DNA of 64,000 bases from Crocinitomicaceae bacterium (GTDB lineage: Bacteria > Bacteroidota > Bacteroidia > Flavobacteriales_D > Crocinitomicaceae): contig QKAV01000064.1 of assembly GCA_003247185.1 (NCBI GenBank), forward strand, positions 6,015 to 70,014, written 5' to 3'. This document shows positions 44,831 through 45,294 of this stretch, one piece after another (the stretch's first letter is position 1; every line of letters begins with the position of its first letter). The position numbers were made by a program, and so were the translations under genes. The notes beneath the pieces are model-generated. The model was not told where the DNA came from. It ran no database searches and saw only the letters and a list, made by a program, of their open reading frames with translations.

Positions 44831-44991
44831 ATTATGGTGATTATGGGGGTTGTGGACAGATACTTCTTCTTAAACTGTCCCAAATCCCGTTCCCTGCCAC
44901 CTCACACTCACACCTCACACTCACTCTGATTTCTCACACTCAAAAAGAAAAGTCAAAACGGTAAAGAGTGAGAGTAGTACGAGTTTTGAGA

Positions 44992-45035
44992 AAAAAGAAA
45001 AGGATGAAAGTTTTCACCTTCATCCTTTTCTTTTT
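44992..45035. terminator. Bidirectional 17-bp terminator hairpin abutting the tRNA-Gln 3' end
   Basis: aaaaagaaaaggatgaa / ttcatccttttcttttt with a 10-nt loop. The arms are A/T-run rich on both strands. Confidence 0.7.
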
Positions 45036-45036
45036 G

Positions 45037-45109
45037 TTGGCCCACTAGGGCTCGAACCTAGACTCTTCTGAACCAAAATCAGACGTGTTGCCAGTTACAC
45101 CATGGGCCA
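45037..45109 (-). tRNA. tRNA-Gln (anticodon UUG)
   Basis: Hand-folded cloverleaf. Acceptor stem TGGCCCA/TGGGCCA (U1-A72) and U8. D-arm GTGT-AACTGGCA-ACAC. Anticodon arm TCTGA-TTTTGGT-TCAGA. T-arm CTAGG-TTCGAGC-CCTAG. CCA is not encoded. Confidence 0.9.
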
Positions 45110-45277
45110 ATTTGTGGCTTTCTCCGTGTTGCCTCCCGATAACTATCGGGATACACCATGGGCCAGTTTGTGGCTTTTTCCGTGTTGCCTCCCGATAACT
45201 ATCGGGATACACCATGGGGCCAGTTTGCTGCTTTTCTGTGTTACCTCCCGATCGTTACCGGGATACACCGTAGGCCA
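45110..45277 (-). repeat. Three tandem ~56-nt pseudo-copies of tRNA-Gln nt 1-26, each with an 18-nt hairpin in the D-loop position
   Basis: T1-equivalents lie at 45165, 45222 and 45277. The unit read on the minus strand is TGGCCCATGGTGTA + TCCCGAT-AGTT-ATCGGGA + GGCAACACGG + AGAAAGCCACAAA(T/C). The distal copy is diverged but keeps the hairpin. Confidence 0.9.
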
Positions 45278-45286
45278 GCGTGGGTG

Positions 45287-45294
45287 CAAATGTA
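45287..45294 (-). promoter_or_regulatory. Candidate Bacteroidota -7 promoter box (TACATTTG) upstream of the repeat array and tRNA-Gln
   Basis: Plus-strand caaatgta is minus-strand TAcaTTTG, which matches TAnnTTTG. A TTG lies about 20 nt further upstream. I saw no other TAnnTTTG between here and the tRNA. Confidence 0.35.

What the first reader, a model, noticed from the sequence alone, without database searches (positions are those of the whole stretch)
45110..45294. Tandem array of truncated tRNA-Gln 5' copies (nt 1-26 with an inserted hairpin) sitting between the likely promoter and the real tRNA
Immediately upstream of tRNA-Gln on the minus strand, three ~56-nt units repeat the tRNA's own first 14 nt (TGGCCCATGGTGTA: acceptor 5' strand, U8, D-stem). 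Next comes an 18-nt hairpin (TCCCGAT-AGTT-ATCGGGA) where the D-loop would be. Then follow the 3' half of the D-arm (GGCAACACG) and a 15-nt linker (GAGAAAGCCACAAAT). The GCCA in the linker can pair with the TGGC of the next unit. The most distal copy has diverged in sequence but keeps the hairpin (TCCCGG-TAACGA-TCGGGA), which hints at selection on structure. The only TAnnTTTG-type promoter box I can find (TACATTTG, 45287-45294) lies upstream of the whole array. The three pseudo-5'-halves would then be transcribed as a ~170-nt leader of the pre-tRNA. Integrative elements normally duplicate tRNA 3' ends, not 5' halves, and CRISPR-like arrays have spacers. I know of no described function for a 5'-half tRNA minisatellite. 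Possibilities include a processing or RNase P decoy leader, a source of tRNA-fragment-like small RNAs, a protein-binding platform, or scars of repeated recombination at the tRNA 5' end. The three ORF-track entries over this region are artefacts of the repeat.
Basis: seen in the sequence. Interest (0 to 1): 0.65.

Follow-up and report, generated by a model that had tools for sequence, protein, structure and literature searches.

The report
Palindrome-capped partial tRNA-Gln copy array
Three tandem dead copies of the first third of a tRNA-Gln gene, each with three D-loop bases swapped for an 18-base palindrome, are gene-less units of a Bacteroidota-wide system of tiny GIY-YIG nucleases that sit beside tRNA genes; I found no paper on it, but this scan has met it before on other genomes.

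Summary
Three units of 55-57 nt (45110-45277, minus strand) lie between the only TAnnTTTG promoter box and tRNA-Gln(UUG). Each unit is tRNA nt 1-14, then TCCCGAT-N4-ATCGGGA, then tRNA nt 18-26, then a 14-15-nt linker.

The array is not a local oddity. At many different tRNAs it replaces the 3 nt before G18 in a partial copy of that same tRNA. tRNA-Gln carries such units in at least five further lineages.

In this genus the palindrome overlaps the stop codon of 99-aa single-domain GIY-YIG nuclease genes that sit beside tRNA genes. In another genome (L263) a tandem array of the same layout holds such a gene where this array has its 15-nt linker.

I read the array as a gene-less, tandemly amplified unit of this nuclease/palindrome system. 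It is probably co-transcribed as a leader and has no host function (confidence about 0.7). How the units are made is inferred, not shown.

The closest published system is Ssn/SRM (Chenal 2025), but its motif definition is not met. This scan noted the same system earlier on other DNA.

The parts
45287..45294 (-). Bacteroidota-type -7 promoter box TACATTTG of the tRNA-Gln transcription unit
   Evidence: It is the only TAnnTTTG on the minus strand between 45330 and 45036. Congeners carry the same box in the same syntenic position, 40-60 nt upstream of their tRNA-Gln.
45223..45277 (-). Unit 3, the distal and oldest unit. Pseudo tRNA nt 1-14 at 45264-45277, palindrome TCCCGGTAACGATCGGGA at 45246-45263, pseudo nt 18-26 at 45237-45245, linker at 45223-45236.
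   Evidence: It is 71% identical to unit 1, and the hairpin is kept with one G.U pair.
45166..45222 (-). Unit 2. Pseudo nt 1-14 with one extra C at 45208-45222, palindrome TCCCGATAGTTATCGGGA at 45190-45207, GGCAACACG at 45181-45189, linker at 45166-45180.
   Evidence: It is 96% identical to unit 1.
45110..45165 (-). Unit 1, the proximal unit. Pseudo nt 1-14 at 45152-45165, palindrome at 45134-45151, GGCAACACG at 45125-45133, linker GAGAAAGCCACAAAT at 45110-45124.
45036..45109 (-). Functional tRNA-Gln(UUG), whose nt 1-14 and 18-26 are the source of the pseudo-copies
   Evidence: ARAGORN. Rfam RF00005 at 62.9 bits.
44985..45035 (-). Intrinsic-terminator-like hairpin plus T-run that ends the tRNA-Gln unit
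   Evidence: Inverted repeat I2 has 20-nt arms, 95% complementary. The sequence ends in TTTTTT.

Best explanation
The array is three gene-less, tandemly amplified units of a Bacteroidota-wide selfish system.

The system consists of a small (78-99 aa) single-domain GIY-YIG nuclease gene that lives right beside a tRNA gene, together with an 18-bp palindrome (consensus TCCCGATAGCTATCGGGA). Where the system sits, part of the tRNA gene is duplicated. The real tRNA stays intact, and the displaced copy has about 3 loop nucleotides replaced by the palindrome. In this window those are D-loop nt 15-17.

Here the duplicated segment runs from about 15 nt of leader through tRNA nt 26. No nuclease gene is present. 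One founding unit was already present in the common ancestor shared with a congener. More units were then added next to the tRNA, so the distal one is the oldest and is decaying.

The units lie downstream of the conserved tRNA promoter. They are most likely transcribed as a roughly 177-nt leader and removed when RNase P cuts at the true 5' end. They have no function for the host.

Shown: the anatomy, the recurrence at other tRNAs, the physical link to the nuclease ORFs, and a nuclease-bearing array of the same layout.

Inferred: that the nuclease acts on the palindrome or on the tRNA loop; that nuclease-induced breaks repaired by copying from the neighbouring repeat add units; that the array is transcribed; and that it is neutral.
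For: 1. The palindrome is dispersed and far above chance.
- TCCCGAT-N4-ATCGGGA has 140 sites in 28 of 56 congeners, 0-29 per genome, against 1 for the reversed control.

2. The same architecture recurs at other tRNAs, and each pseudo-copy matches its own tRNA.
- Own-genome tRNA-Asn.
- Leu-GAG and Leu-UAA.
- Arg, Asn, Asp and others.
- 9 of 122 exact copies lie within 150 nt of a tRNA gene.

3. tRNA-Gln carries the identical A14|palindrome|G18 junction in other lineages.
- G020 has 1 unit.
- G414 has 2 units, G434 has 1, and G086, from another family, has 1.
- A metagenome lineage has 1 unit.
- The acceptor variants are lineage-specific (TGGCCCA, TGTCCCA, TGACCCA).
- Most congeners have none.

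4. There is a physical link to the nuclease.
- 25 of 30 small GIY-YIG loci in the genus have a tRNA gene in the ~3-kb locus, usually within ~50-150 nt of the ORF.
- The palindrome overlaps the ORF's stop codon (TCC CGA TAG) and replaces T-loop bases of a displaced tRNA-Leu 3' part in L212, L214, L216 and L217.
- The ORFs are PF01541 GIY-YIG.
- All 8 congeners with a close homologue of the 99-aa nuclease have the palindrome, against 20 of the other 48.

5. L263 (tRNA-Met) is the nuclease-bearing counterpart.
- Its layout is promoter-leader-nt1-14 | TCCCGATAGCTATCGGGA | nt18-36 | 95-aa GIY-YIG ORF | promoter-leader-real tRNA.
- The ORF is 37% identical to the L212 nuclease.
- A decayed second ORF copy lies distally.
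- L167 and L170 show the same layout with another palindrome.

6. Linker lengths range widely, from 8-22 nt through 36, about 64 and about 190 nt up to about 390 nt with an ORF.

7. In G414 and the metagenome lineage, the end of the linker duplicates the native leader. The unit is therefore a local tandem duplication.

8. There is a published precedent for a GIY-YIG nuclease driving tandem segmental amplification at a tRNA locus: SegB (PMC13096335).
Against: - No nuclease ORF lies in the window or at any of the seven Gln-type loci seen.
- The 76%-complete own genome encodes only one small GIY-YIG gene. It sits at tRNA-Phe with a different palindrome.
- One 99%-complete congener (G056) has 15 palindromes and no close nuclease homologue.
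- No nuclease of this group has been assayed, so binding or cutting of the palindrome or of the tRNA loop is untested.
- The exact 3-nt replacement is not explained by any step I can demonstrate.
- Imperfect hairpins in tRNA-linked units tend to show G.U on the tRNA-sense strand (unit 3 here, G020, G024). This would also fit selection on an RNA hairpin. The sample is tiny, and counter-examples exist in L214 and L217.
- Copy number rests on a short-read metagenome assembly.
Confidence: 0.7

Rival explanations
1. The palindrome-capped pseudo-5' halves are a functional RNA leader. They would act as a structured 5' extension that modulates pre-tRNA-Gln processing (an RNase P or chaperone decoy) or yields small RNAs.
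For: The array lies between the only promoter box and the tRNA, so it should be transcribed. The leader plus tRNA folds better than shuffles (-92.8 kcal/mol, z = -3.8). The diverged distal unit and the G020 and G024 units keep the hairpin through G.U pairs on the sense strand. In L263 the capped pseudo-half forms the 5' UTR of the nuclease mRNA, so an RNA role in the full element is conceivable.
Against: Most congeners and 396 of 401 genomes sampled from the order lack the unit at tRNA-Gln. Copy number runs from 0 to 3. Linkers are unrelated between lineages. No Rfam family matches. The same palindrome occurs irrespective of transcription context: coding sequence, terminator tips, RNase P RNA and Flavo-1 RNA. 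The low folding energy comes from palindromes pairing with one another. Perfect palindromes can also be kept perfect by hairpin-templated repair, without selection.
Confidence: 0.1
2. The 18-mer is a self-propagating mini-palindrome that needs no dedicated nuclease. It would spread by replication template switching or a host enzyme, land in hairpin loops and provoke local duplications. Its link to GIY-YIG genes would be secondary.
For: Most of the 122 exact copies in 120 loci have no recurrent neighbouring ORF. The palindrome sits at hairpin tips in RNase P RNA, Flavo-1 RNA and terminators. Immediate flanking direct repeats of 8 nt or more occur at 5.8% of copies against 0.14% of control positions. 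An 11-nt flank recurs on the other side within 400 nt at 19% against 2.9%. G056 has 15 copies and no close nuclease homologue.
Against: The palindrome overlaps the stop codon of the nuclease ORF in several independent loci. All 8 genomes with the close nuclease homologue carry it. A sequence conserved across a whole phylum argues for a sequence-specific protein partner, as with REP/RAYT and SRM/Ssn (PMC11893778).
Confidence: 0.12
3. The palindromes are operator sites for a dimeric transcription factor, and three phased sites regulate tRNA-Gln or the divergent TMEM260-like gene.
For: The consensus is a perfect 18-bp palindrome. The three copies are spaced 56-57 bp apart and lie next to a divergent promoter region.
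Against: Copies occur inside coding sequence, structured RNA genes, terminator loops and pseudo-tRNA loops. Congeners hold 0-29 copies each. Each copy here is embedded in a duplicate of the tRNA. The sites lie downstream of the promoter, inside the transcribed leader.
Confidence: 0.03
4. The units are att-site scars of a tRNA-targeting integrative element, or the copy number is an assembly artefact.
For: G020 has a duplicated tRNA-Gln 3' end downstream, so integrative events do occur at this tRNA. The genome is a 265-contig assembly, and units 1 and 2 differ at only 3 positions (one extra C, two substitutions).
Against: No integrase was noted near the tRNA in this window. That is another first-stage note (e1-3904753), which I did not verify. 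The duplicated part is the 5' third, and the copies are separated by only 15 nt. The same junction recurs in independent assemblies, including 2-unit and at-least-3-unit arrays. The units differ from one another, so the array is not a simple collapse or expansion.
Confidence: 0.05

Closest known systems
Ssn nucleases with NTS/SRM hairpin repeats (Chenal et al. 2025, PMC11893778)
   Same: Both have a single-domain GIY-YIG protein of about 80-100 aa. In both, the gene is physically associated with a short GC-rich palindrome that is also dispersed through the genome. The core is similar in outline (TCCCG...CGGGA). The gene-plus-hairpin layout looks like an insertion sequence.
   Different: The palindrome here does not fit the published SRM search pattern (0 of 122; the NTS control matches). 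It is a symmetric 18-mer without the oriented flank that SsnA needs. Copy numbers are low, 0-29 per genome. The nuclease genes sit beside tRNA genes with partial tRNA duplications, which the paper never mentions ('tRNA' 0 hits, 'Bacteroid' 0 hits). Membership of cd10448 and single-strand specificity could not be tested.
REP/BIME elements with RAYT (TnpA-REP) transposases; REPtrons
   Same: Both involve a short dispersed palindrome that is far more numerous than its single protein-coding partner. Many copies are orphans, and copies occur at terminator-like positions.
   Different: The partner here is a GIY-YIG nuclease, not a Y1 (HUH) transposase. There is no GTAG or CGTC tag. Here the palindrome replaces loop bases of duplicated tRNA segments.
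Free-standing GIY-YIG homing endonuclease SegB of phages T4/T6 (PMC13096335)
   Same: Both are GIY-YIG nucleases resident among tRNA genes. SegB cuts tRNA-gene DNA, and its breaks drive tandem segmental amplification by recombination. That is a tested precedent for arrays like this one.
   Different: SegB is a larger, multi-domain phage enzyme. It is not associated with a conserved palindrome or with capped partial tRNA copies, and its repeats are about 718 bp including the gene.
Very small mobile palindromic repeats that enter structured-RNA genes (cyanobacterial small dispersed repeats; Rickettsia palindromic elements). This comparison is from my own knowledge and was not re-read here.
   Same: Tiny hairpin-forming repeats are found inside RNA genes, at hairpin tips and in frame within coding sequence.
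   Different: The sequence, phylum and presumed enzyme all differ, and no tRNA partial duplications are described for those repeats.
tRNA-targeting integrative elements (attL/attR duplications)
   Same: An insertion in a tRNA gene is tolerated because the element brings a replacement copy of the displaced tRNA segment.
   Different: Those elements use a tyrosine or serine integrase and kilobase-scale cargo, and they usually duplicate the 3' end. Here the unit is 56 nt, lies on the 5' side, has no integrase and has a palindrome at the junction.

Membership tests
Ssn/SRM system (PMC11893778) | Small single-domain GIY-YIG nuclease (about 94 aa, CDD cd10448) | tested here: inconclusive
   The palindrome-linked ORFs are 78-99 aa with only PF01541. 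CDD assignment is not available here, and there is no PDB sequence relative. No such gene lies in this window.
Ssn/SRM system (PMC11893778) | The repeat fits the SRM degenerate motif HGTCWY-N(0-2)-YYVSBRH-N(0-5)-WNVSBRG-N(0-2)-RNCYNB | tested here: not met
   0 of 122 palindromes with 15 nt of flank on each side match, none matches in the array, and none of the 4 nuclease-linked copies matches. The NTS positive control matches.
Ssn/SRM system (PMC11893778) | Nuclease gene flanked by its hairpin repeat | tested here: met
   The palindrome overlaps the ORF's stop codon in L212, L214, L216 and L217 and lies just 5' of the ORF in L263. It is usually on one side only.
Ssn/SRM system (PMC11893778) | Sequence-specific cleavage of single-stranded DNA next to the hairpin | not testable with these tools
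   This needs purified protein and oligonucleotide assays.
REP/RAYT | Y1 (HUH) RAYT transposase partner and a GTAG/CGTC-tagged palindrome | tested here: not met
   The palindrome starts TCCCGAT and has no GTAG or CGTC tag. The recurrent partner ORF is GIY-YIG. No search for RAYT was run.
Free-standing GIY-YIG homing endonuclease (Seg-like) | GIY-YIG domain plus a separate DNA-binding domain (about 200 aa or more), with cleavage of a cognate allele that lacks the gene | tested here: not met
   The ORFs are 78-99 aa and single-domain. NCBIfam TIGR01453 scores 19-21 bits against a cut-off of 56. Cleavage was not testable.
tRNA-integrating element att duplication | Integrase-bearing element between direct repeats of the tRNA 3' part | tested here: not met
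   The repeats come from the 5' third and are 15 nt apart, and there is no ORF between them.
CRISPR array | Repeats of 23 nt or more separated by unique spacers | tested here: not met
   The repeat is 18 nt, and the three 37-38-nt 'spacers' are copies of one another and of the tRNA.
Curated RNA family (Rfam 15) | Covariance-model match over the units | tested here: not met
   At E up to 1, only the tRNA itself and weak chance hits downstream of it match.

The most novel reading that the evidence does not exclude
The 18-bp palindrome and its tiny GIY-YIG partner form a new kind of mobile system. It would enter the single-stranded loops of hairpin-forming DNA (tRNA D- and T-loops, RNase P RNA, terminator tips), swap about 3 loop bases for the palindrome and copy the flanks. 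That would build tandem arrays such as this one and capture tRNA promoters to express the nuclease. This would be a transposition or homing mechanism not described for GIY-YIG enzymes. The pseudo-half plus hairpin could in addition act at the RNA level, as the nuclease mRNA leader.
Probability: 0.3. Interest if true: 0.8.

Novelty: new variant of a known kind. Interest (0 to 1): 0.55.

Why it matters
If this reading is right, Bacteroidota tRNA genes are the home of an unpublished selfish system that does four things:
- It remodels tRNA loci by creating partial copies and tandem arrays.
- It seeds an 18-bp palindrome into structured RNA genes, terminators and even coding sequence.
- It borrows strong tRNA promoters.
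- It explains a class of 'odd tRNA fragments' that annotators and tRNA finders will keep meeting.

The nucleases are very small and appear to be sequence- or structure-specific. Like the Ssn enzymes, they could be useful reagents. This array adds two things to that picture: a clean example of the gene-less end state, and evidence that the distal units are the oldest.

Tried and rejected
- **Rfam.** A scan of the region at E up to 1 gave nothing but the tRNA.
- **Folding.** The good energy of the leader plus tRNA comes from palindromes pairing with each other, so it says nothing about function.
- **Sigma-70 and terminator scan.** Uninformative for a Bacteroidota promoter.
- **Literature.** Searches for the literal sequence and by keywords found no description.
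- **Neighbouring ORFs.** No recurrent ORF lies next to the palindromes in the 120 loci sampled across the phylum. Most copies are therefore orphans.
- **Empty-site comparison.** I tried to find the orthologous empty site for the palindrome at the own-genome terminator tip (C23). Congeners are only about 68-70% identical there, so it failed.
- **Target-site duplication.** Exact flanking repeats are enriched but present in under 10% of copies. The palindrome is therefore not a conventional transposon with a fixed target-site duplication.
- **Palindrome orientation.** I first read AGTT versus AACT loops as orientation. The consensus centre is AGCT, a perfect palindrome, so these are single transitions.
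- **Viral contigs.** Only 6 hold the exact 18-mer, and none has a nuclease nearby.
- **SRM motif test.** Negative.
- **PDB sequence search.** Negative.

Full report
**1. Observation**

tRNA-Gln(UUG) lies at 45036-45109 on the minus strand. Directly upstream, Tandem Repeats Finder reports a 56-nt period with 3.3 copies. Read base by base, the region holds three units at 45110-45165, 45166-45222 and 45223-45277. Each unit has four parts:
- the tRNA's own nt 1-14;
- an 18-nt palindrome (TCCCGATAGTTATCGGGA twice, TCCCGGTAACGATCGGGA in the distal unit);
- the tRNA's nt 18-26 (GGCAACACG);
- a 14-15-nt purine-rich linker.

The palindrome therefore replaces exactly D-loop nt 15-17 (ACT). The middle unit is 96% and the distal unit 71% identical to the proximal unit. 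The only TAnnTTTG box on this strand lies at 45287-45294. Congeners carry the same box in the same syntenic place, 40-60 nt upstream of their tRNA-Gln.

**2. The hairpin is not local**

In the own genome, an exact copy of the 18-mer sits 20 nt upstream of tRNA-Asn (C118:7646) in the same arrangement: CTTCTTTAGCAC | palindrome | TGGTTAGAGTA | 9-nt linker | real tRNA-Asn. Near-identical copies sit at the tips of two terminator hairpins (C23:18579, C53:39569).

Almost every record is Bacteroidota, from Flavobacteriales, Chitinophagales, Cytophagales, Bacteroidales and Sphingobacteriales.

Within the genus, TCCCGAT-N4-ATCGGGA has 140 sites in 28 of 56 genomes, 0-29 per genome. The reversed control has 1. 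The commonest centre is AGCT, so the consensus is a perfect 18-bp palindrome.

The contexts of the copies in the 120 loci are:
- within 150 nt of, or inside, a tRNA gene: 9 of 122, seven of them upstream;
- hairpin tips of terminators;
- inside RNase P RNA (L088) and a Flavo-1 RNA (L115, 89 nt against 76 nt for its uninterrupted neighbour);
- low-complexity intergenic DNA;
- a few apparently in-frame sites in coding sequence.

Immediate flanking direct repeats of 8 nt or more occur at 5.8% of copies against 0.14% of control positions. An 11-nt flank re-occurs on the other side within 400 nt at 19% against 2.9%.

**3. The same capped partial copy at other tRNAs, and at tRNA-Gln in other lineages**

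| tRNA | Source |
|---|---|
| Leu-GAG | G016 |
| Leu-UAA | G024 |
| Arg-TCG | L057, G015 |
| Asn | L058/L260, L261 |
| Asp | L130 |
| Arg-TCT | L262 |
| Leu-TAG | G217, at least 3 units of 82 nt |

Where real and pseudo copies align cleanly, the palindrome takes the place of the 3 nt (4 in L130) just before G18 (ACT, GTT, ATT or GCT), following A14. The pseudo-copy always matches the tRNA next to it.

L078 shows the mirror image. There a pseudo-3' part with the palindrome in its T-loop lies downstream of tRNA-Leu.

For tRNA-Gln, the identical junction GGTGTA | palindrome | GGCAACAC is present in:
- G020, 1 unit, with a linker homologous to the one here;
- G414, 2 units;
- G434, 1 unit;
- G086, 1 unit, from another family;
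- a metagenome lineage, 1 unit.

Acceptor variants are lineage-specific (TGGCCCA, TGTCCCA, TGACCCA). The unit is missing from most congeners and from 396 of the 401 genomes sampled from the order.

In G414 and the metagenome lineage, the last 8-13 nt of the linker repeat the native leader. The unit is therefore a local tandem duplication running from about -14 to +26, with the upstream copy capped.

**4. Link to a nuclease**

I tested this claim.

*Own genome.* A 78-aa GIY-YIG gene (PF01541) lies directly after tRNA-Phe. It is followed by a second copy of the tRNA's T-arm-to-terminator segment, whose T-loop is replaced by a different palindrome.

*Genus.* Small GIY-YIG genes occur in roughly 40% of genomes. 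In 25 of 30 loci a tRNA gene lies in the ~3-kb locus, usually within ~50-150 nt of the ORF. In the tRNA-Leu(CAA) group (L212, L214, L216, L217), a 99-aa ORF (PF01541, 37.7 bits) reads through the duplicated T-stem. It stops inside the palindrome (TCC CGA TAG), and the palindrome replaces T-loop bases of the displaced tRNA 3' part. All 8 genomes with a close homologue of that nuclease carry the palindrome, against 20 of the remaining 48. The genomes are related, so this is weak support.

*The decisive parallel, L263 (tRNA-Met, another class-level lineage).* Its layout is promoter-leader-nt1-14 | TCCCGATAGCTATCGGGA | nt18-36 | 95-aa GIY-YIG ORF | promoter-leader-real tRNA. The ORF is 37% identical to the L212 protein and scores 29.8 bits on PF01541. 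A second ORF copy, broken by a stop codon, lies further upstream. This is the architecture of the present array, with a nuclease gene and a duplicated promoter where the array has its 15-nt linker. The distal copy is again the decayed one.

L167 and L170 (tRNA-Arg) have the same layout with another palindrome family.

Linker lengths range widely across cases: 8-22 nt, 36 nt, about 64 nt, about 190 nt with a duplicated promoter, and about 390 nt with an ORF.

**5. What it is and how it probably arose**

*Shown.* The array consists of capped partial copies of the adjacent tRNA. The cap is a phylum-wide palindrome. That palindrome is physically joined to small GIY-YIG genes at tRNA loci. ORF-bearing and ORF-less versions share one layout and both form tandem arrays with older distal members.

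*Inferred.*
- The units here are a gene-less version of the cassette. They arose either by loss of the ORF or by action of a nuclease encoded elsewhere.
- Unit addition follows nuclease-induced breaks at the tRNA loop or at the palindrome. The break would be repaired by copying from the neighbouring repeat. This is the process shown experimentally for the GIY-YIG nuclease SegB at a phage tRNA locus (PMC13096335).
- The founding unit predates the split from G020, because the two linkers are homologous.

I cannot explain the precise 3-nt replacement. I also cannot say whether the enzyme recognises the palindrome, as SsnA recognises its hairpin, or recognises the tRNA loop.

**6. RNA-level reading**

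The fold is better than shuffles (z = -3.8), but only because neighbouring palindromes pair with each other. G.U pairs on the sense strand in three imperfect hairpins hint at RNA selection. The sample is small, counter-examples exist (L214, L217), and C-to-T bias on the non-template strand would produce the same pattern. The patchy distribution, variable copy number and unrelated linkers argue against a conserved leader function.

**7. Comparison with known systems**

*Ssn/SRM (PMC11893778).* This is the closest published system. It has ~94-aa single-domain GIY-YIG nucleases whose genes are flanked by a dispersed hairpin repeat, and its authors note a resemblance to insertion sequences. The present palindrome fails their SRM pattern (0 of 122, with a positive control). 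It is symmetric, occurs at low copy number, and is tied to tRNA partial duplications. That paper mentions neither tRNA nor Bacteroidota. I therefore file this as 'works like', not as a member.

*REP/RAYT, Seg homing endonucleases, integrative-element att duplications and CRISPR.* Each shares one trait with this system and fails a defining one. The membership table gives the details.

**8. Novelty and caveats**

I found no paper describing palindrome-capped partial tRNA copies or tRNA-resident mini GIY-YIG cassettes in Bacteroidota. This scan has reported the same system several times on other genomes. The present finding is therefore a further, gene-less example and not a first sighting.

The genome is a 76%-complete, 265-contig assembly. 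The absence of a cognate nuclease and the exact unit number are both provisional.

Noticed in passing
own genome C118:7634-7682 (locus L002, about 1489-1537), outside the window: A single palindrome-capped pseudo-5' part of tRNA-Asn (CTTCTTTAGCAC | TCCCGATAGTTATCGGGA | TGGTTAGAGTA | 9-nt linker) lies directly upstream of the real tRNA-Asn(GTT). It has the same design as the Gln units.
   Followed up: partly
own genome C197:2935-3400 (locus L162, 1389-1870), outside the window: The order is tRNA-Phe, terminator, a 78-aa GIY-YIG gene, then a second copy of the tRNA T-arm-to-terminator segment plus the first ~45 nt of the ORF. In the second copy the T-loop is replaced by a different palindrome (CCCTGCCTGTCGTAACGACAGTGCAGACAGGG).
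   Followed up: partly
own genome C23:18579-18596 and C53:39569-39586: The palindrome sits at the tip of terminator hairpins whose outer stem is GCCCTGAC/GTCAGGGC. The whole composite hairpin recurs at non-orthologous sites in congeners (G043:C37, G018:C61, 92-93% identity). A longer nested palindrome unit may exist.
   Followed up: no
L088 419-436 (Sinomicrobium pectinilyticum) and L115 1380-1397 (Flavobacterium silvaticum): The 18-mer lies inside an RNase P RNA gene, close to the RNA's 5' end, and inside one of two Flavo-1 RNA copies (89 nt against 76 nt). It therefore enters loops of presumably functional structured-RNA genes without any duplication.
   Followed up: partly
L009 1-300 (G020:C50): Downstream of the congener's tRNA-Gln, the tRNA 3' end plus terminator is duplicated about 130 nt away. 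This is a separate event on the 3' side of the same tRNA. G414 has a similar 3'-side duplicate headed by TTTCCGATAGTGATCGGAA.
   Followed up: no
window 44898-44938, and flanks of many palindrome copies (for example L044, L090, L126, L152): Short low-complexity tandem repeats, such as CACCTCACACTCA x2 just beyond the tRNA-Gln terminator, are common next to the palindrome in other genomes. They may be footprints of repeated short duplications.
   Followed up: no
L208 2640-2720 (IMG/VR contig): Palindrome-like arms are nested around the 18-mer (CCCCCCGATAGTCC TCCCGATAG [18-mer] GGACTATCGGGGGG). This suggests palindrome-into-palindrome insertion. The exact 18-mer is otherwise rare in viral contigs (6 hits).
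   Followed up: no
own genome C187:15504-16883 (locus L163 937-2316): A 459-aa protein joins a DnaQ-like exonuclease N-terminal part to a GIY-YIG domain. It looks like an ordinary repair-type fusion and is unrelated to the palindrome system.
   Followed up: no
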